The position numbers and the translations under genes are program-made. From contig OY762962.1 of assembly GCA_963667195.1 (NCBI GenBank), positions 162,896-226,895 of the forward strand: DNA of 64,000 nucleotides. Direction: 5' to 3'. The notes under the pieces were generated by a model. The model worked only from the letters and a program-made list of their open reading frames with translations. It did no database searches and was not told the origin of the DNA. Of this stretch, positions 1,985-8,970 are shown piece after piece; positions within the stretch are counted from its first letter, which is position 1, and each line of letters starts with the position of its first letter. Origin of the DNA: Christensenellaceae bacterium. Lineage in GTDB: Bacteria > Bacillota > Clostridia > Christensenellales > CAG-138.

Positions 1985-3751
1985 TTAACCCGAAATCGCC
2001 TTCTTGATGCGCCAGGTTTCGCTTTCGTTGAGTAATAGCGTCAGGTGCGTGCCGTCCTCCTCGTGCGACTCGGACAGGATGGTCGCGCTCTGGCGGATCA
2101 TCTGCATCGCGCCGTGCTTGTCATACGGAACGACGACCTCCAGCCGCACCTGAGACTTTGCGAGCGCTTCCTCAATCGCCTTGAGCAGCGCTTCCACTCC
2201 GTCGCCCGTCGCCGCGCTGATGGCGATGCCGCCGCTTCTCGGCTTGGCTTCGGGTTTGTCGATCTTGTTATATACGTCGATTCTCTGCGTATCTATCGCG
2301 CCGAGTGAGGTCAATACCTCCTCGACCACGCGCATCTGCACGTCGAAGTAATCGCTGGAGCTATCCACCACATGCAGCACGAGATCCGCGTCGCACACCT
2401 CGTCCAGTGTGGAGCGAAACGCGTTGACCAGATCGTGCGGCAGCTTGTTGATGAAACCGACCGTGTCGGAAAGCAAACACTCGGCGCCGTTTGGCAGCGT
2501 AATCTTGCGCACGATGGGATCGAGCGTCGCAAAGAGCTTGTCTTCCGCCAGCGCATCCGCACCGGAGAGCAGGTTGAGGAGCGTCGATTTACCCGCGTTG
2601 GTGTAGCCCACCAGCGCCACGACGGGAATCGGGTTCGCCGCGCGCTTTGCCCGGCGTAAGCCGCGCTGCTTTTCAATTTCAGCGAGCTCCTGCTCGAGTT
2701 CAAATACGCGCCTGCGGATTCTGCGGCGGTCGATCTCCAGCTTTTTTTCGCCCGGGCCGCGCATGCCGACGCCGGAGGAACCCTGCCGGGACAGCACCTT
2801 GCCCATGCCGAGCAAACGCGGCAGGCGGTACTTGAGCTGCGCCAGCTCGACCTGCAGCTTGCCCTCGCGGGACTGCGCGCGCTGCGCGAAGATATCCAGT
2901 ATCAGCATCGTGCGGTCGATGATGGGTAAGCCCAACACCAGCTCCAGATTGCGCAGCTGGATGGCGGTCAGCTCATCGTCAAACACGAAGATATCCGCTT
3001 CGCAGGCGGAGGCCGTCAGCGCGAGCTCCTCCGCTTTGCCGCTGCCGATATAGGTCGCGGCGTCCACGGCGCGTCTGCGCTGCTGTTCCTTCGCGACGAC
3101 CTTGATGCCCGCGGTCTGGCAAAGCTCCGCCAATTCGGAGAGCGTGTCGTAGCCGTCCGCGGACTCGATGCCCGCGAGCACGGCGCGATCCGGCTTGATC
3201 TCCACGATGTTGTAGGTGTCGGAAAGCAGGCGCTTATCCGCCTCAAGAATCGCGTCCATGAGCTGCTTTTGCGGCAGATGGTGCGCGCGCATCGGCCCGT
3301 ACCAAATGGGGATGCGCTCCTCGCCTTCCATGTCGCCGATGAAGGCGGCATAGACGCTGCTCGCCTTGCCTTCCTTGACACCGATGGCGCACATGGCGTC
3401 GAGGCGCAGCGCGTTGAGTGAGCCAAGATCGACATCCGAAAGATACCCCGTCTCGTTCGGGTGCGTGTGGATGCAGCGCACACCGCTGAGGCGGTCGATG
3501 TTGCGCACAAGGCGCATCTCCTCCATATGGACGGAGTGGTCGTCGCCCACGCGAACATCCTCAATCTTGCCCACGCGAGAGACGTAGATCAGCACCTCGC
3601 GGTTGATGATGGATGTAAAATGCACCAGCGCGTCGCAGACCTCGTCCGAAAGGAACTCGTCCGCGGACATCTCGATATCGTAGAGCAGCAGCATTTCATT
3701 TAGAACGATGTCCCGAATGCCGCCGATATTACCGTGTATTTCTCGTTTCAT
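1985..3751 (-). CDS. hflX: GTPase HflX, long form with N-terminal extension
   Basis: LDIFAQRAQSREGKLQVELAQL, GPGEKKLEIDRR, G1 GYTNAGKST, LFATLD, DTVGFI, NKID; start placed at ATG 3751, downstream of the predicted promoter. Confidence 0.95.
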   Translation of the reverse strand: MKREIHGNIGGIRDIVLNEMLLLYDIEMSADEFLSDEVCDALVHFTSIINREVLIYVSRVGKIEDVRVGDDHSVHMEEMRLVRNIDRLSGVRCIHTHPNETGYLSDVDLGSLNALRLDAMCAIGVKEGKASSVYAAFIGDMEGEERIPIWYGPMRAHHLPQKQLMDAILEADKRLLSDTYNIVEIKPDRAVLAGIESADGYDTLSELAELCQTAGIKVVAKEQQRRRAVDAATYIGSGKAEELALTASACEADIFVFDDELTAIQLRNLELVLGLPIIDRTMLILDIFAQRAQSREGKLQVELAQLKYRLPRLLGMGKVLSRQGSSGVGMRGPGEKKLEIDRRRIRRRVFELEQELAEIEKQRGLRRAKRAANPIPVVALVGYTNAGKSTLLNLLSGADALAEDKLFATLDPIVRKITLPNGAECLLSDTVGFINKLPHDLVNAFRSTLDEVCDADLVLHVVDSSSDYFDVQMRVVEEVLTSLGAIDTQRIDVYNKIDKPEAKPRSGGIAISAATGDGVEALLKAIEEALAKSQVRLEVVVPYDKHGAMQMIRQSATILSESHEEDGTHLTLLLNESETWRIKKAISG

Positions 3752-3824
3752 GTGGTTACTTGTTTTTTCCGTTTCTGTTTCAATTGCGTTTTCGCACGTG
3801 TTTGGGTGCTTTTCGCTTGAACGT

Positions 3825-3853
3825 ATCATATCATTCCCTTCGCCCGCTGACAA
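3825..3853 (-). promoter_or_regulatory. Sigma-A type promoter of hflX
   Basis: TTGTCA-17 bp-TATGAT with TG extension on the minus strand. Confidence 0.65.
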
Positions 3854-3884: not shown

Positions 3885-3923
3885 CCAAAAAGAGCCCGAA
3901 GGAACTCCCTCCAGGCTCTTTGG
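3885..3923 (-). terminator. Terminator after the cysS-associated gene
   Basis: AAGAGCC...GGCTCTT hairpin followed by TTTTT on the minus strand. Confidence 0.6.
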
Positions 3924-3937
3924 ATTGCCGTTTCGCC

Positions 3938-4447
3938 TTACTTAACGTTCTTGTCCTCATCGTCGAAGTTAAACGCAGAGGACGGCATGGAAGAGCCGCC
4001 GCGCGGTGCCGCGCTCTGCTTCGACTTGGCCTGTGCGTCCTTGTCGACATACTTGCGCATCTTGACGACGAGGAACACGATGAGTCCCAGCGTCAGCGCG
4101 AGAGCGACGTAGGAGATGATATCAAACACCGGCGCCGTGAGGAAGGAGAACGCACCGAGGTCTTTGATTGTCACCCAGCCATAGACCGCCTTGGCGGTTT
4201 CGGTTGCGGGCGTGATCTCCTGATAGGCGTAAAACGTGTTGCGGAGCAGGGATGCCGCGCTGTTGATCACCATCGCGATGCCGAGGAAGATGTAGATTTT
4301 GCGGGAGAGCGCTTTGAACTCCTCCTGCAAATCCTCTTTGATGTTCTCTACGCTGTAGAGTTTTCCCTTGCCGACGATGCCCGAGTAGAGCACATAGACA
4401 GAAACGGCGAGCAGCAGCCAGTCAAACATGGCAAATGAGTTGGACAT
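3938..4447 (-). CDS. Hypothetical membrane protein (about 3 TM)
   Basis: 169 aa, three hydrophobic segments, RBS AAGGAG. Confidence 0.75.
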   Translation of the reverse strand: MSNSFAMFDWLLLAVSVYVLYSGIVGKGKLYSVENIKEDLQEEFKALSRKIYIFLGIAMVINSAASLLRNTFYAYQEITPATETAKAVYGWVTIKDLGAFSFLTAPVFDIISYVALALTLGLIVFLVVKMRKYVDKDAQAKSKQSAAPRGGSSMPSSAFNFDDEDKNVK

Positions 4448-4501: not shown

Positions 4502-5893
4502 TTATAGTTTCTTGAGCTTCGGGCCGGTCGCCGTGTCCTCCACGGTAAAGCCCATTTCCTTAAGCGCATCGCGAATCTCGTCCGCGCGCGCAAAGTTTTT
4601 CGCCTTGCGAACAACCTGCCGCTCTTCCAGCAGCGCCAATGCTTCGGCGGGGAACTCCTCCGCCTTTGCGTGGGTTAAAATGCCCAGCACGCCGGTGAGC
4701 TCGCTAAAGAGTGCCTGACCCGCTTCCAGTGCGGCTTTTCCGCGCGGCTCGGTGACAAAGGTGTTCGCAGCACGCGCAAAGTCGAACAGCACGCCGATGG
4801 CGTCCGCCGTATTGAGGTCGTCGTCCATCGCCTCGCAGAAGCGCGCCTTGATGTCCTGCAGCTGGGTGAGGAACGCTGCGTCCTCCGCCGTGCCATCGGG
4901 CGCAATCTGCGCCTCGGCGAGCCGCTCTTTCGCGGTGCGGAGTCGTTCCAGCGCGCTCTCTGCCTGCTGAATCATCTCGCGCGAGAAGTTCACGGGGTTA
5001 CGGTACTGCACGCCCAGCATGAACATCCGCACGGCTTCGAGATCAAATTCCTTGGCGATATCACGCACGGTAAAGAAGTTGTTGAGCGATTTGCTCATCT
5101 TCTGGTTATCCACGTTGATATAGCCGTTGTGCATCCAGTAGCGCGCAAACGGGTGTCCCGTTGCAGCCTCGCTCTGCGCAATCTCGTTCTCGTGGTGCGG
5201 GAAGATCAAATCCTGCCCGCCGCCGTGAATATCAAACGTTTCGCCGAGGATCGCCATGCTCATGGCGGAGCACTCGATGTGCCAGCCCGGCCTGCCTTTG
5301 CCCCAGGGAGAATCCCAGCTCGGTTCGCCGGGCTTTTCCGCTTTCCAGAGCGCGAAGTCGAGCGGGTCGCGCTTCGACTCGTCGGGATCGACGCGTGCGC
5401 CATTTTCCAGATCGTCGATGTTCTGGCCGGAGAGCTTGCCGTAGCCGTCAAAGCTGCGAACGGAGAAATAGACGTCTCCATCCGGCGTGGCATAGGCGTG
5501 ACCCTTTTCGATGAGCGTGCTCACGAGCGAGATGATCTCGCCGATGTGCTCGGTGGCTCTGGGGTTCACGCTCGCGCGGCGCACGCCAAGCGCGTCCGCA
5601 TCGTGGTAATATTCCTTGATGAAGCGCTCGCCGAGTTCCTTGACCGTGGTTCCCTCTTCGTTTGCCCGGCGGATCATCTTGTCGTCGATGTCCGTAAAGT
5701 TCTGCACAAAGCGCACGTTGTATCCGCGATATTCCAGATAGCGGCGCAGGGTGTCGAATACGATAAACGGGCGCGCGTTACCGATGTGGAAGTAGTTATA
5801 GACCGTAGGTCCACAGGCGTACATCGAAATCTGTCCCGGAACGAGCGGAATGAGCTCCTCTTTCTTGCGCGTCATCGTATTATAGATCTGCAT
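4502..5893 (-). CDS. cysS: Cysteine--tRNA ligase
   Basis: CGPTVY, HIGN, PGWHIECSAM, DIHGGGQDLIFPHHENE, KMSKS; RBS GGAGG. Confidence 0.98.
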   Translation of the reverse strand: MQIYNTMTRKKEELIPLVPGQISMYACGPTVYNYFHIGNARPFIVFDTLRRYLEYRGYNVRFVQNFTDIDDKMIRRANEEGTTVKELGERFIKEYYHDADALGVRRASVNPRATEHIGEIISLVSTLIEKGHAYATPDGDVYFSVRSFDGYGKLSGQNIDDLENGARVDPDESKRDPLDFALWKAEKPGEPSWDSPWGKGRPGWHIECSAMSMAILGETFDIHGGGQDLIFPHHENEIAQSEAATGHPFARYWMHNGYINVDNQKMSKSLNNFFTVRDIAKEFDLEAVRMFMLGVQYRNPVNFSREMIQQAESALERLRTAKERLAEAQIAPDGTAEDAAFLTQLQDIKARFCEAMDDDLNTADAIGVLFDFARAANTFVTEPRGKAALEAGQALFSELTGVLGILTHAKAEEFPAEALALLEERQVVRKAKNFARADEIRDALKEMGFTVEDTATGPKLKKL

Positions 5894-6013: not shown

Positions 6014-6748
6014 TTATCCTTTGCTTTTCTCGCGCAACTCGGCTTCCAGTGCGTCCAAGCGCTGTTTAAGCTGCTCGAGCTGCTGCTCCACCGGATCGGG
6101 TAGATCGACCTGATCGAGATCGACGCCCGCCTCACCGGACAGGCCCTCGGTTCTTCTGACGCATTTGTCCGTGTCGCTACACTCGCATTTGCCGTCGTCA
6201 CACATCCCAACCCGCTCGCAAGGCACCTTGCAGCCATAGAGCCGCACCACGTGGCCCGGCACGCCGACCACGGTGGAAAACGCGGGCACATCCTTGAGCA
6301 CCACCGCGCCCGCGCCGATCTTCGCGTGGCTGCCGACCGTGACCGGGCCAAGCACCTTCGCGCCTGCCGAGATCGTGACATGGTCGCCGACCGTCGGGTG
6401 GCGCTTGCCGGTGTCCTTGCCCGTTCCGCCGAGCGTCGCGCCCTGGAAGATGGTCACGTCGTCGCCGATGACCGCGGTTTCGCCGATCACCACGCCAACG
6501 CCGTGGTCGATGAAGAGGCGCTCGCCGATCGTAGCGCCGGGGTGAATATCGATGCCAGTGGTAAAGCGGCACCATTCCGACGTCATGCGCGCGAGAAGGT
6601 TCATCTTGCGGCGGTAGAACCAGTTCGCTCTGCGGTGGATGCGCACGGCGCGAAACCCCGGGTAGCAGAGCATAACCTCCCAGATGGATTTTGCGGCGGG
6701 GTCTCGTTTGAGCACCGCCTGCAGATCGCTTTTCAGCGTTTTGAACAT
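6014..6748 (-). CDS. cysE: Serine O-acetyltransferase
   Basis: RDPAA, IDIHPGATIG, FIDHG, GGTGKDTGKRHPT, hexapeptide repeats; start set at ATG 6748 after RBS AAAGGA. Confidence 0.95.
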   Translation of the reverse strand: MFKTLKSDLQAVLKRDPAAKSIWEVMLCYPGFRAVRIHRRANWFYRRKMNLLARMTSEWCRFTTGIDIHPGATIGERLFIDHGVGVVIGETAVIGDDVTIFQGATLGGTGKDTGKRHPTVGDHVTISAGAKVLGPVTVGSHAKIGAGAVVLKDVPAFSTVVGVPGHVVRLYGCKVPCERVGMCDDGKCECSDTDKCVRRTEGLSGEAGVDLDQVDLPDPVEQQLEQLKQRLDALEAELREKSKG

Positions 6749-6797
6749 ATCTTTTGTGTTTCCTTTCGCGGAGTGCCTCGTGCGGTACTCCGTCAGC

Positions 6798-7060
6798 AAA
6801 TAAAATAAGCGCAACCATCATAAAGACGATTGCGCATCGCGGTTCCACTTTATTTGAAGAATTACAAAAATTCTTCCTCTCAAGGCTGTAACGCAGCTGC
6901 TGCGTCCGCCGATACTCGGCCGATCCATCGCATGGCGGCACTTTGTCGGCGGCGGCTCTCGGAAGGCACTTCGGCAACTCTGGTTCAGGTTGGCTTTCAG
7001 CCGGTGACCAACCCTCTCTTGGAACAAACGGAAGATGCTTACTCTTTTCCGATCATACGC
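6798..7060 (-). promoter_or_regulatory. T-box riboswitch (Cys-specific) with its terminator, upstream of cysE-cysS
   Basis: Minus strand: AGTA, AGAGA and GCTGAAA stem-I motifs; GAAG-TGC specifier candidate; T-box AATAAAGTGGAACCGCG (about 6838-6854); terminator GCGCAATCGTC/GATGGTTGCGC followed by a T-rich tail. Confidence 0.88.
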
Positions 7061-7242
7061 CTGTTTCATATGATTGATACCTTAGTTTATGGTAAATTTA
7101 GTCCGTATGTCAAGATGCAATGTGACTTTCTCACACAACAATCACACCGCAAATCACGACTTTTCCCCTTGTCAAATCATGATTTCTGGGCGATAATAAA
7201 TTGTTTATCAGAATTATTGTGGTTATGTAGGAGAAATGTGCT

Positions 7243-8970
7243 ATGAGAATGAGCGAATTGCTCGGCGAGCGTTACAAAGAGAAACCCGCAGACTGCACCA
7301 TTGAGAGCCACGCGCTCATGGTGCGCGGCGGCTACATCAAGCAGATCAACACCGGCGTGTATACGCTGCTGCCGCCCGCAAGACGCATCACGCAGAAGAT
7401 TGAGCGCATCATCCGTGAGGAGATGGACGCCATCGATGGTCAGGAAGTGCTTTTCCCCGTCGTGCTGCCCGCCGACCTCTGGAAAGAGAGCGGCAGGTTC
7501 ACGAGCGTCGGCAAAGAGCTGGTTCGCCTGACCGACCGCATGGGCGCGGACATGGTGCTCGGCATGACGCACGAGGAAGCAGCGGTGCACCTCGCGCGCG
7601 ACGCCGCCAAGAGCTATGCCAAGTATCCTTTTATGATCTATCAGATTCAGACCAAGTTCCGCGACGAGCCCCGCGCCCGCGGCGGTCTGATTCGCGTACG
7701 CGAGTTTACGATGAAGGACGCGTATTCCTTCCACACAAATCAGGCGGATCTGGAAGAGTATTACCAGCGCTGCTATGTCGCGTATGAGCGCATCTTCCGG
7801 CGCGCAGGCTGCAAAAATGTCATCGCCGTGCTCTCCGATTCCGGCATGATGGGCGGTCGCGTTTCGCACGAGTTCATGCTGCTCACCGCCATCGGCGAGG
7901 ACACGCTGGTCATCTGCGACAACTGCGACTTCAAGGCAAATATCGAAGCCTGCGCCAGCGTGGTGGATAACTCCACACTCGGAGCAGTCGAAGCGCTCAC
8001 CCTCGTGCCCACGCCGGAGATGGCGACCATCGAGGAAGTCGCGGGCTATCTGCACAAGCCGCATAACGCCACCTGCAAGGCGGTCGTCTATCAGCGCAAC
8101 GCGGACGACAGCTACGTCATCGCGTTTGTGCGCGGAGACCTCGAGGTACACGAAACCAAGCTGCGCAACACCGTCGGCGCGGAGATCCATCCCGCCGTCA
8201 TCACGCCGGAGAGCGGCATCGTCGCGGGCTTCATCGGGCCCAAAGGCCTCGACACCAAGAAGATCACCGTGCTGTTCGACCGCTCGCTTGAGGGCATCGG
8301 TGCGCTCGTCTGCGGCGCGAACCAGCAGGACTACCACTACACCGGCTTCAACATCGAGCGCGACTACGGCAAGGTTTCGTATGTGGACGTCGCCCGCGCG
8401 ATTCCCGGTGGCATCTGCCCTGTCTGCGGCAAACCGACACTGACCATCAGCAACGGTGTCGAGGTCGGCAACATCTTCCAGCTTGGCGACAAGTACACCA
8501 AGAGCATGAACATGCAGTATCTCGACGAAAACGGCCAGCTGCAATACCCCATCATGGGTTGCTACGGCATCGGCGTGGGTCGTCTCTCCGCGAGCGTCTG
8601 TGAAGAGAGCCACGATGAATACGGCCCCATCTGGCCGATCAGCATCGCACCGTGGGAAGCGCAAATCTGCGTGCTCCGCGCGGATCAGGAGGAGCCCAAA
8701 CGCGTTGGCGAAGAGCTCTACGCCGCGCTGCAGAAAGCTGGCGTGGATACCATCATCGACGATCGTCCGGTCAGCGCGGGCGTCGTGTTCTCGGAAGCCG
8801 ACCTCATCGGCGCGCCGATTCGCCTCACCGTCAGCCCCCGCAATCTCGCGGACGGCATGATCGAGCTCACCACGCGCGACAAGCGGATCAAGAAGCAGGT
8901 TCCCGTTGTGGAAGCGCTTTCCGCCGTGCTGGAGCTCAAAGCACAGCTCTTTGCCGAGATCATGGAGTAA
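7243..8970 (+). CDS. proS: Proline--tRNA ligase (bacterial type with editing insertion)
   Basis: MTHEE, YQIQTKFRDEPRARGGLIRVREF, EVGNIFQLG, MGCYGIGVGR. Confidence 0.97.
   Translation: MRMSELLGERYKEKPADCTIESHALMVRGGYIKQINTGVYTLLPPARRITQKIERIIREEMDAIDGQEVLFPVVLPADLWKESGRFTSVGKELVRLTDRMGADMVLGMTHEEAAVHLARDAAKSYAKYPFMIYQIQTKFRDEPRARGGLIRVREFTMKDAYSFHTNQADLEEYYQRCYVAYERIFRRAGCKNVIAVLSDSGMMGGRVSHEFMLLTAIGEDTLVICDNCDFKANIEACASVVDNSTLGAVEALTLVPTPEMATIEEVAGYLHKPHNATCKAVVYQRNADDSYVIAFVRGDLEVHETKLRNTVGAEIHPAVITPESGIVAGFIGPKGLDTKKITVLFDRSLEGIGALVCGANQQDYHYTGFNIERDYGKVSYVDVARAIPGGICPVCGKPTLTISNGVEVGNIFQLGDKYTKSMNMQYLDENGQLQYPIMGCYGIGVGRLSASVCEESHDEYGPIWPISIAPWEAQICVLRADQEEPKRVGEELYAALQKAGVDTIIDDRPVSAGVVFSEADLIGAPIRLTVSPRNLADGMIELTTRDKRIKKQVPVVEALSAVLELKAQLFAEIME

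What the first reader, a model, noticed from the sequence alone, without database searches (positions are those of the whole stretch)
3190..3751. HflX N-terminal extension carries an intact JAMM/MPN+-like metal motif
Seen: about 185 extra residues precede the normal HflX start. They contain NREVLIYV and HTHPNETGYLSDVD (3428-3469), which is E...HxH-x7-S-x2-D. Established: this is the JAMM/MPN+ signature of Rpn11/JAB isopeptidases and RadC. Inference: a ribosome-splitting GTPase fused to a possible Zn-dependent peptidase or nuclease could couple ribosome rescue to cleavage of a substrate. Long HflX forms exist in other Clostridia, but I know of no function assigned to this domain.
Basis: partly seen in the sequence, partly recalled or inferred. 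Interest (0 to 1): 0.7.

Follow-up and report, generated by a model that had tools for sequence, protein, structure and literature searches.

The report
JAB metallohydrolase domain fused to HflX
This bacterium's only copy of the ribosome-splitting GTPase HflX begins with an extra, conserved domain that has the fold and the complete zinc-site motif of JAB/JAMM hydrolases, so it probably brings a second, still untested enzyme activity to the ribosome.

Summary
The minus-strand gene 1985-3751 encodes a 588-aa HflX. Its first ~187 residues (3190-3751) precede the canonical HflX domains and carry E52...H95-T-H97-x7-S105-x2-D108 (3428-3469).

The bare motif is at chance level genome-wide: 16 hits against 10.6 in shuffles. 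The case rests on four other results:
- All five motif residues are invariant in 88 sequences of 28-69% identity. The exact motif is in 144 of 150 cluster representatives.
- A profile of the domain hits only AMSH-type JAMM enzymes at the top of the PDB, E 9e-4.
- A confident AlphaFold model (pLDDT 94) matches JAB/MPN structures first: PfJAMM1 at Z 8.3, CSN5 by Foldseek.
- No Pfam or NCBIfam model covers the domain, and it is not RadC.

The fusion was found in 81 of 300 sampled genomes of the class, once per genome (two extra pieces in G041), with no sign of a stand-alone form. It is the only HflX in 6 of 6 complete genomes.

It is best read as a new JAB family that HflX delivers to the ribosome's intersubunit face. 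The substrate is unknown. No paper found describes it. This scan noted the same thing twice before on other genomes.

The parts
1985..3751 (-). hflX, long form (588 aa from ATG 3751; the stop codon is included)
   Evidence: ORF list and translation. TIGR03156 GTP_HflX scores 443.9 bits against a cut-off of 216.75. PF13167, PF16360, PF01926 and PF19275 are all above their cut-offs. It is the only HflX in the genome.
3190..3751 (-). N-terminal JAB/MPN+-like domain (residues 1-187), covered by no Pfam or NCBIfam model
   Evidence: There are no family hits even at E<=10. The AlphaFold2 model has pLDDT 94. The best fold matches are JAB/MPN proteins. A profile of the domain hits AMSH-LP at E 9e-4.
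3428..3469 (-). H95-T-H97-x7-S105-x2-D108: predicted zinc ligands (H, H, D) and catalytic serine
   Evidence: Read directly from the sequence. HMMER aligns it to the IHTHPTQTAFLSSVD stretch of STAMBP/AMSH-LP. It is invariant in 88 of 88 aligned sequences. The exact pattern is present in 144 of 150 representatives.
3596..3598 (-). E52 codon (in NREVLIYV, 3581-3604): predicted general-base glutamate, 43 residues before H95
   Evidence: Invariant in 88 of 88 sequences and in 53 of 53 full-length sequences. It sits just before strand 53-58 in the model.
3212..3271 (-). Connecting helix (residues 161-180). It is followed by a short, less confident linker (181-187) into HflX ND1.
   Evidence: Secondary structure and pLDDT of both models. 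The pLDDT blocks for 171-190 fall to 71-75 in the full-length model.
1985..3189 (-). Canonical HflX body: N-terminal domain plus helical domain, G domain and C-terminal domain (residues 188-588)
   Evidence: Pfam and NCBIfam ranges. Solved HflX chains (5ady, 8a57, 8vio, 8kab) align only from profile position ~160-187 onward, so none of them has this N-domain.
3825..3853 (-). Promoter-like site TTGTCA-17 nt-TATGAT with TG, upstream of ATG 3751. It overlaps the alternative starts at 3829 and 3853.
   Evidence: Consensus scan, 10 of 12 matches; sequence. This is a pattern match only.
3898..3911 (-). Terminator-like hairpin after the upstream membrane-protein gene, which suggests hflX has its own transcript
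   Evidence: Consensus scan. This is a pattern match only.

Best explanation
Residues 1-187 of this HflX form a genuine JAB/MPN+ (JAMM) domain with an intact zinc site. It belongs to a distinct, unnamed family, found here only as the N-terminal module of HflX, in many Clostridia-class lineages. That much is shown.

The rest is inferred. HflX binds the 50S or 70S ribosome through its N-terminal and helical domains. The JAB module is tethered to the N-terminus of ND1 by one helix and a short linker. HflX would therefore carry it to the intersubunit face, near uL16 and H38. There it would act as a metal-dependent hydrolase on an extended, ribosome-associated substrate during ribosome splitting, rescue or recycling.

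I think a peptide-type substrate is more likely than RNA. Candidates are a ribosomal-protein tail, a released nascent chain or a peptide-like modification. My reasons are that every biochemically characterised JAB enzyme is a peptidase and that this domain is acidic. The substrate is unknown.
For: Sequence:
- E52, H95, T96, H97, S105 and D108 are invariant in 88 sequences of 28-69% identity to the query. These were P0002 plus 87 of the 150 best representatives, chosen for long coverage.
- The same residues are invariant in 53 full-length sequences.
- The exact H.H.{7}S..D pattern is in 144 of 150 representatives.
- E52 and S105 are not metal ligands in JAMM enzymes. The abstract of PMC300881 says the His and Asp coordinate the zinc and the Glu hydrogen-bonds (listing). 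Their invariance argues for catalysis rather than mere metal binding.

Homology:
- The single sequence hits STAMBP and AMSH-LP at E 0.03-0.08, aligned on the motif.
- A 33-sequence profile of the domain hits AMSH-LP at 9e-4, STAMBP at 5e-3 and Sst2 at 0.02. The 12 best of 19 hits are all of this family.

Fold:
- The model has pLDDT 94 and pTM 0.89.
- Foldseek gives CSN5 at E 7.9e-4, and all titled rows are JAB/MPN entries.
- VIA-align over 48,161 chains gives PfJAMM1 at Z 8.3 (rmsd 3.6 A, 113 residues), Sst2 6.5, RadC 6.1, AfJAMM 6.0 and Cap3 5.8, with deaminase-fold proteins below these.

Selection:
- Mean pairwise identity is 0.35 for the JAB domain, 0.54-0.55 for the HflX ND/HD and G domains, and 0.25 for the CTD.

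Fusion is obligate:
- 81 of 300 sampled class genomes have a match. 78 of the 83 matched places lie in open frames of 571-765 aa, with one copy per genome apart from two fragments in G041.
- Short database homologues are partial HflX.
- It is the only HflX in the window's genome and in 5 of 5 other single-contig genomes.

Placement:
- In mycobacterial HflX the 39-58-aa N-terminal extension contacts uL16 and H38 and reaches H69-H71 (PMC12493154, passages).

Acidity:
- The domain's median pI is 5.3 and its median net charge is -6. The window's copy has net charge -12.
Against: - No activity, metal content or substrate has been tested anywhere that I could find.
- The fold scores are middling. 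Foldseek TM-scores are only 0.25-0.36, and a single hit has E<=0.001. The VIA tool itself warns that a best Z of 7-8 is typical even for models without true relatives.
- The Pfam JAB-type models do not recognise the domain.
- The profile-profile match to RadC has only 35% probability.
- Spatial clustering of the five residues could not be measured, because no coordinates are returned.
- No Ubl, E1 or E2 gene lies near hflX in the window or in 18 other loci, so the usual JAB substrate context is missing.
- Six conserved basic positions (R13, R51, R59, R83, R92, R116), several of them in the loop before the HxH strand, would also suit RNA binding.
- Placement on the ribosome is extrapolated from a much shorter, unrelated mycobacterial extension.
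Confidence: 0.6

Rival explanations
1. The domain is a JAB-fold nuclease or RNA-acting hydrolase, as has been predicted for RadC-type JAB domains. In this reading HflX delivers it to cut mRNA, tRNA or rRNA on stalled ribosomes. This differs from the best explanation only in the substrate.
For: Iyer et al. [quoted passage not shown] They also predict nuclease activity for RadC. RadC is among the structural matches at Z 6.1. There are conserved arginines at 51, 59, 83 and 92. The domain's working environment is RNA-rich. No Ubl partner is encoded nearby.
Against: No JAB domain has a demonstrated nuclease activity in anything I read. The domain is acidic overall, with median pI 5.3 and net charge -12 in the window's copy, which is unusual for an RNA-binding module. 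The profile match to RadC is weak, at 35% probability. The best sequence and fold matches are peptidases.
Confidence: 0.2
2. The domain is a non-catalytic module. In this reading it is a zinc-stabilised wedge or docking domain that helps HflX bind, split or disorder the ribosome, as the short mycobacterial N-terminal extension does. It could also regulate the GTPase.
For: The mycobacterial NTE works sterically, by disordering H68-H71 (PMC12493154, passages). Many MPN domains in eukaryotes are scaffolds; Prp8 Jab1/MPN and Rpn8 appear among the fold matches. One distant relative, P0228, carries five copies that lack the HxH motif, so the fold can persist without the site.
Against: Scaffold MPN domains typically lose the motif. 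Here the non-ligand catalytic residues E52 and S105 are invariant, as are the three ligands, in 88 of 88 sequences down to 28% identity.
Confidence: 0.15
3. The finding is an artefact: a chance motif in a non-JAB extension, or two adjacent genes wrongly read as one.
For: The bare motif occurs at chance frequency in the genome, 16 against 10.6 expected. No curated family model covers the region.
Against: The single open frame is conserved in 78 of 83 matched places in 81 genomes and in the full-length proteins of many assemblies. The motif is invariant. The model is confident and JAB-like.
Confidence: 0.03

Closest known systems
Prokaryotic and archaeal stand-alone JAMM/JAB enzymes: Pyrococcus furiosus JAMM1 (PDB 5ld9), Archaeoglobus AfJAMM (1r5x), CBASS Cap3 (9ild), bacterial Ubl-deubiquitinase (8tyy)
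   Same: These are the best structural matches, at Z 8.3, 6.0, 5.8 and 5.9 over about 100-120 residues. They share the E...HxH-x7-S-x2-D motif defined in PMC300881 (abstract seen in the listing). The core size is also similar.
   Different: Sequence identity is only 11-14%. The Pfam Prok-JAB model does not hit the domain even at E<=10. Those enzymes work with Ubl proteins encoded nearby or in the same system, and no Ubl, E1 or E2 gene lies near hflX. This domain has extra N-terminal elements (residues 1-29 fall outside the aligned ranges) and a C-terminal helix that tethers it to HflX.
AMSH / AMSH-LP / Sst2 (eukaryotic JAMM deubiquitinases; PDB 2znr, 2znv, 3rzu, 4jxe)
   Same: This is the only family found by sequence, at E 9e-4 with the profile, aligned on the motif stretch (IHTHP..LS.VDL in the and 26 alignments). 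Sst2 is the second-best structural match, at Z 6.5.
   Different: The match covers only about 45 residues around the motif. These are eukaryotic, K63-ubiquitin-specific enzymes with their own insertions. There is no ubiquitin system here.
RadC (Pfam PF04002; Chlorobium RadC, PDB 2qlc)
   Same: RadC is a bacterial JAB domain of unknown chemistry with the same motif (HNHPSG...PS..D). It matches structurally at Z 6.1, and the motif columns align in hhalign.
   Different: The hhalign probability is only 35% over 62 columns. The RadC model does not hit HflX. The genome has its own separate RadC gene. RadC is linked to DNA contexts, not to the ribosome (PMC3239186).
Mycobacterial HflX with its N-terminal extension (PDB 8vio, 8kab and others)
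   Same: It is an HflX with extra N-terminal sequence that adds a function at the intersubunit face. The review notes that NTE-bearing HflX proteins also occur in 'several Clostridium spp.' (PMC12493154).
   Different: The mycobacterial NTE is 39-58 residues, has no enzyme motif and acts by disordering rRNA. Here the extension is a folded domain of about 187 residues with a hydrolase site. Solved HflX chains align only from profile position ~160-187 onward.
MutS2 of Bacillus subtilis: a ribosome-splitting ATPase that carries an SMR nuclease domain
   Same: It is a functional analogy only: a ribosome-rescue or splitting factor that carries a hydrolase domain on the same polypeptide.
   Different: The folds and the nucleotide used are unrelated. 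This is an analogy from recall, not a test.

Membership tests
JAB/MPN+ (JAMM) metalloenzyme superfamily | The sequence motif E-x(n)-H-[ST]-H-x7-S-x2-D (PMC300881) | tested here: met
   E52, H95-T96-H97, S105 and D108 are present and invariant in 88 of 88 sequences. The pattern is exact in 144 of 150 representatives.
JAB/MPN+ (JAMM) metalloenzyme superfamily | MPN/JAB alpha-beta fold (deaminase-like) | tested here: met
   The model has pLDDT 94. All titled Foldseek rows are JAB/MPN entries, the best at E 7.9e-4. VIA-align puts JAB proteins at the top (Z 8.3 to 5.5) with deaminases below. Scores are moderate (TM about 0.3), so this is a diverged member.
JAB/MPN+ (JAMM) metalloenzyme superfamily | The motif residues converge on one metal site in three dimensions | tested here: inconclusive
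   No coordinates are returned, so only topology can be read. HxH lies at the end of strand 91-98, S..D at the start of helix 106-115, and E just before strand 53-58. This is the canonical arrangement as I recall it.
JAB/MPN+ (JAMM) metalloenzyme superfamily | Zinc binding and hydrolase activity | not testable with these tools
   This needs metal analysis and enzyme assays.
Pfam Prok-JAB (PF14464), RadC (PF04002) and JAB (PF01398) families | Scores above the family's curated HMM cut-off | tested here: not met
   Residues 1-187 give no Pfam hit at E<=10. Genome-wide searches with PF14464 and PF04002 found other genes but not hflX. hhalign against a RadC alignment gives 35% probability. The domain is therefore a separate family within the superfamily.
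HflX GTPase (TIGR03156) | Equivalog HMM above cut-off, with ND, HD, G-domain and CTD architecture | tested here: met
   443.9 bits against a cut-off of 216.75. PF13167, PF16360, PF01926 and PF19275 are present in order. A profile hits solved HflX chains at E 1e-139.
Ubl-coupled JAB systems (CysO-Mec+, SAMP-JAMM, CBASS Cap2/Cap3, Bil/Bub) | A Ubl, E1 or E2 gene in the same neighbourhood | tested here: not met
   111 neighbouring proteins (up to three on each side) were scanned against Pfam at E<=1e-5, from the window and 18 other loci. No ThiS/MoaD/Ubl, ThiF/E1 or E2 family appeared. The genome's one E1-like plus Prok-JAB pair lies elsewhere, at about 2.17 Mb.

The most novel reading that the evidence does not exclude
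JAB-HflX is a two-activity ribosome rescue factor: the GTPase splits or holds the ribosome while the tethered zinc hydrolase cuts a ribosome-bound peptide. The peptide could be the basic tail of a ribosomal protein at the tRNA corridor, a stalled nascent chain or a peptide-like modification. That would make proteolysis at the intersubunit face a step of ribosome rescue or recycling in a large part of the Clostridia. It would also be the first JAB enzyme with a substrate that is not a ubiquitin-like protein.
Probability: 0.3. Interest if true: 0.85.

Novelty: new variant of a known kind. Interest (0 to 1): 0.62.

Why it matters
HflX is a universally conserved ribosome-splitting and antibiotic-tolerance factor, and its species-specific additions are only now being linked to mechanism (PMC12493154). 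In a large block of gut, rumen and cellulolytic Clostridia, the only HflX carries what looks like an intact metallohydrolase. The block includes Christensenellaceae, Oscillospiraceae-labelled MAGs, Ruminiclostridium and Acetivibrio.

If the domain is active, it would add a chemical step to ribosome rescue that no current model contains. It would also give the JAB superfamily a context free of ubiquitin-like proteins. That bears on the open question of what bacterial JAB domains such as RadC do.

The idea is directly testable, because cultured carriers exist (Ruminiclostridium spp., Acetivibrio cellulolyticus) and the point mutants are obvious.

There is also a simple annotation gap. About 185 conserved residues, in at least 590 species genomes and 503 protein clusters, have no family model.

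Tried and rejected
- **Curated family models.** Pfam and NCBIfam scans of residues 1-187 gave nothing at E<=10. The weak Pertussis_S2S3 line for the whole protein (E 0.23) is a chance match and was not used.
- **JAB-type Pfam models on the whole genome.** Searches with PF14464 and PF04002 found a separate Prok-JAB gene and RadC, but not hflX.
- **RadC membership.** hhalign gave 35% probability, so membership was rejected.
- **ESM Atlas look-up.** The nearest clusters are unnamed proteins of about 180-186 aa, one of them labelled HflX. Prok-JAB and RadC clusters appear only at 0.83-0.84, below the tool's lead threshold.
- **Stand-alone forms.** Short homologues are named 'partial' HflX, sit on short contigs or carry the start of PF13167. 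Genome matches lie in frames of about 600 aa. Both 'viral contig' hits are also HflX genes of 600-607 aa. I found no stand-alone family. The word-based search reaches only fairly close relatives.
- **Ubl/E1/E2 partners near hflX.** None were found.
- **The JAB domain as the bL27 propeptide protease.** Dropped, because the genome has its own Prp, PF04327 at 81.8 bits.
- **YigZ/IMPACT as a partner.** It lies within three genes downstream of hflX in 10 of the 18 other loci I chose. In the window's genome it lies about 2.8 Mb away. I did not test whether the linkage is specific to the JAB form.
- **Peptidyl-tRNA hydrolysis at the PTC.** I consider this unlikely on geometric grounds: a globular domain tethered at the ND1 N-terminus cannot reach the PTC. 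This is inference only.
- **Literature.** No paper joins HflX with JAMM, JAB, MPN, RadC or Mov34. The two apparent co-occurrences were the word 'jamming/jammed'. The 'jamm' hits in PMC6514570 were likewise 'jammed'.
- **The listing of cluster members.** The call, meant to name the organisms of ten diverse representatives, could not be made because the database was switched off.
- **Full-length model.** It has pLDDT 86 and pTM 0.71. Without coordinates or PAE it gives no usable information on how the domains dock.
- **Not run.** Complex prediction, the look-up of sequencing runs and read laying were not used, and no supplementary files were opened.
Full report
**What is there**

The finding lies on the minus strand. 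The open frame 1985-3853(-) holds an HflX gene. From ATG 3751 it encodes 588 residues. The curated HflX models begin only at about residue 190: TIGR03156 covers 191-530 at 443.9 bits against a cut-off of 216.75, and PF13167 covers 203-289, followed by PF16360, PF01926 and PF19275.

Residues 1-187 (3190-3751) match no Pfam or NCBIfam model even at E<=10. They contain NREVLIYV (residues 50-57, with E52) and HTHPNETGYLSDVD (residues 95-108, 3428-3469).

**Is it more than chance?**

The bare pattern is not. H.H.{7}S..D occurs 16 times in all open frames of at least 100 aa of the organism's 3.25-Mb genome, and a mean of 10.6 times (range 6-18) in 20 residue shuffles. Only three of the 16 read H[TN]HP: this HflX, the genome's RadC and a Prok-JAB gene.

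The evidence lies elsewhere. A phmmer search of residues 1-187 against 1.84 billion cluster representatives gave 503 hits at E<=1e-3 and 231 at E<=1e-10. Of the best 150, 144 carry the exact pattern. The six exceptions are:
- three fragments that end before the motif (P0172, P0247, P0258);
- P0260, which matches only query residues 4-100;
- P0249, which has a six-residue spacer;
- P0228, a 1090-aa protein with five degenerate copies.

I aligned the window's domain with 87 of those 150, chosen for long coverage, at 28-69% identity to the query. The invariant columns are E52, R59, G69, H95, T96, H97, S105, D108 and D118. The same columns are invariant in 53 full-length sequences.

Mean pairwise identity is 0.35 in the N-domain, 0.54-0.55 in the HflX ND/HD and G domains, and 0.25 in the C-terminal domain. 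The extension is therefore constrained about as strongly as accepted parts of HflX.

**Is it a JAB/MPN+ domain?**

By sequence, the single domain hits only STAMBP/AMSH-type JAMM deubiquitinases in the PDB (E 0.03-0.08), aligned on the motif. A 33-sequence profile made from short fragments (A2) raises this to 9e-4 for AMSH-LP, 5e-3 for STAMBP and 0.02 for Sst2. The 12 best of its 19 hits all belong to that family, and an archaeal Rpn11 homologue follows at 0.5.

By structure, AlphaFold2 with the 88-sequence alignment gives pLDDT 94 and pTM 0.89. Foldseek against the PDB lists CSN5, Rpn11, BRCC36, Prp8 Jab1/MPN, Npl4 MPN and BubCD entries throughout. However, only one hit has E<=0.001, and TM-scores are 0.25-0.36.

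VIA-align against 48,161 representative chains, which is independent of Foldseek, puts P. furiosus JAMM1 first (Z 8.3, rmsd 3.6 A, 113 residues). It is followed by Sst2 (6.5), DSY2949 (6.1), RadC (6.1), AfJAMM (6.0), a bacterial Ubl-deubiquitinase (5.9), Cap3 (5.8), CSN5, Rpn11 and BRCC36. Nucleotide deaminases of the related fold come lower.

The tool warns that Z of 7-8 alone can be a common arrangement. The case therefore rests on the agreement of motif, profile and fold, not on any single score.

In the model, H95 and H97 end strand 91-98, S105 and D108 open helix 106-115, and E52 precedes strand 53-58. As I recall it, this is the canonical JAMM topology. I could not measure distances because coordinates are not returned.

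The domain is not a member of the curated JAB families. PF14464 and PF04002 searches of the whole genome find other genes but not hflX. hhalign against a 25-sequence RadC alignment gives only 35% probability, although it aligns the motif columns. I file it as a new family inside the JAB superfamily.

**Distribution and architecture**

The domain profile matched 81 of 300 genomes sampled from the same class; one further genome could not be scored. There is one match per genome, apart from two fragments in G041. Whole families are either all positive or all negative: f26 10/10, f19 6/6 and f29 5/5, against f7 0/11, f12 0/11 and f14 0/10. Two families are mixed (f13 8/11, f24 1/9).

Of the 83 matched places, 78 lie in open frames of 571-765 aa. 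The other five are three shorter frames of 447, 366 and 295 aa (G005, G063, G023), in assemblies of about 180-340 contigs, and the two G041 fragments.

The closest are labelled Christensenellaceae, Christensenella, Clostridia and Oscillospiraceae MAGs. Cultured carriers include Ruminiclostridium cellobioparum, R. herbifermentans, R. sufflavum, Clostridium sp. BNL1100 and Acetivibrio cellulolyticus.

Short database homologues are partial HflX proteins. Both hits in viral contigs are genes of 600-607 aa.

The window's genome has a single HflX, this one. The same holds in 5 of 5 other single-contig genomes that carry the fusion. The JAB form is therefore the housekeeping HflX of these organisms, not an accessory paralogue.

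None of the solved HflX structures has this domain; they align only from profile position ~160-187 onward.

**Context**

In the window, hflX is flanked by:
- an S15-family peptidase gene (264-1907, +);
- a 169-aa membrane-protein gene with no Pfam match (3938-4447, -);
- cysS (4502-5893, -) and cysE (6014-6814, -), behind a T-box leader (6819-7066, -);
- proS (7243-8970, +).

A terminator-like hairpin (3898-3911) and a promoter-like site (3853-3825) lie between the membrane-protein gene and hflX.

Pfam scans of up to three neighbours on each side found no Ubl, E1 or E2 gene. A YigZ/IMPACT-family gene (UPF0029, with DUF1949 in 8 of the 10) lies within three genes downstream in 10 of the 18 and is directly adjacent in 6. 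YebC/TACO1 is nearby in 3. In the window's genome YigZ lies far away.

**How it most likely works**

Three things are shown: an intact, invariant JAMM site, a JAB-like fold, and obligate fusion to the N-terminus of the organism's only HflX.

The rest is inferred. HflX docks on the 50S intersubunit face. In mycobacteria, a 39-58-residue extension at the same terminus touches uL16 and H38 and reaches H69-H71 (PMC12493154, passages). A folded 20-kDa domain, tethered there by one helix (161-180) and a short, less confident linker, would sit in or beside the tRNA corridor.

Iyer et al. describe the JAB pocket as suited to a long, narrow substrate, either an extended peptide or single-stranded nucleic acid (PMC3239186, passages). 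The domain is acidic: median pI 5.3, and net charge -12 in the window's copy. It has a handful of conserved arginines at positions 13, 51, 59, 83, 92 and 116.

Every characterised JAB enzyme is a peptidase. Together with the acidity, this makes me favour a peptide-type substrate over RNA, but only weakly. Candidates are a basic ribosomal-protein tail, a nascent chain or a peptide-like modification.

A purely structural role is the main alternative. The invariance of the non-ligand residues E52 and S105 argues against it.

I rejected two specific ideas:
- Processing of the bL27 propeptide, because the genome has its own Prp.
- In-situ peptidyl-tRNA hydrolysis at the PTC, on geometric grounds; this is inference only.

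**Novelty**

Three full-text searches found no paper that links HflX to JAMM, JAB, MPN, RadC or Mov34. The apparent co-occurrences were the word 'jammed'. A 2025 review notes only that HflX proteins with N-terminal extensions occur in 'several Clostridium spp.'. I opened no supplementary files.

This scan has noted the same fusion twice before on other genomes, with the same reading (e1-3619971 and e1-3211220). Those notes are not independent evidence, and I re-derived each point here.

The fold and the GTPase are both known. The combination, the new JAB family and the context free of ubiquitin-like proteins are what is new, so I class it as a new variant of a known kind.

**Verdict**

- Observation: confirmed.
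- Interpretation: supported as far as computation can go.
- Confidence that this is a real JAB-fold domain with an intact metal site: about 0.9.
- Confidence that it is a catalytically active, ribosome-directed hydrolase: about 0.6.
- The substrate is unknown.
- Interest: 0.62.

Noticed in passing
window 6819-7066 (-): There is a T-box leader (RF00230, 96.3 bits against a gathering score of 93) directly upstream of the cysE (6014-6814) and cysS (4502-5893) genes on the minus strand. This is an ordinary tRNA-sensing leader for a cysteine operon.
   Followed up: no
window 3938-4447 (-): A 169-aa predicted membrane protein lies immediately upstream of hflX and has no Pfam match at E<=1e-5. It is followed by a terminator-like hairpin at 3898-3911.
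   Followed up: no
window 3751-3853 (-): The start codon differs between callers. The closest relatives are called at 614 aa, which corresponds to ATG 3829 here; that ATG has AAGGGA upstream. Most homologues start at the position of ATG 3751 (588 aa). A promoter-like TTGTCA-17-TATGAT overlaps ATG 3829 and would exclude it.
   Followed up: partly
loci L028, L029, L033, L034, L036-L039, L042, L043 (other genomes): A YigZ/IMPACT-family gene (UPF0029, with DUF1949 in 8 of the 10) lies within three genes downstream of the long hflX in 10 of 18 hand-picked loci and is directly adjacent in 6. YebC/TACO1 is nearby in 3. This may be a translation-related gene cluster. It is not present in the window's genome, where YigZ lies at about 3.01 Mb.
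   Followed up: partly
protein P0228 (metagenomic representative, 1090 aa): This protein has an N-terminal LptE domain (PF04390, E 7e-11) followed by five degenerate copies of the HflX-type JAB-like domain. All five lack the HxH motif. It appears to be an inactive, repeated form in an outer-membrane lipoprotein context.
   Followed up: partly
locus L021 (own genome, about 2.165-2.169 Mb, outside the window): Three genes lie in a row on one strand: a 460-aa protein that I read as E1-like by eye (no Pfam scan was made), a 160-aa Prok-JAB protein (PF14464, 37.8 bits, with HTHPFANPMPSMTD) and a 219-aa predicted membrane protein. The arrangement looks like a ubiquitin-like or CBASS-type defence module.
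   Followed up: no
genome G041, contig C2 2546-2865 (another genome): In addition to its full-length JAB-HflX gene, this genome holds a second, broken piece of the JAB-like domain: a 122-aa frame plus a 37-aa piece with stops.
   Followed up: no
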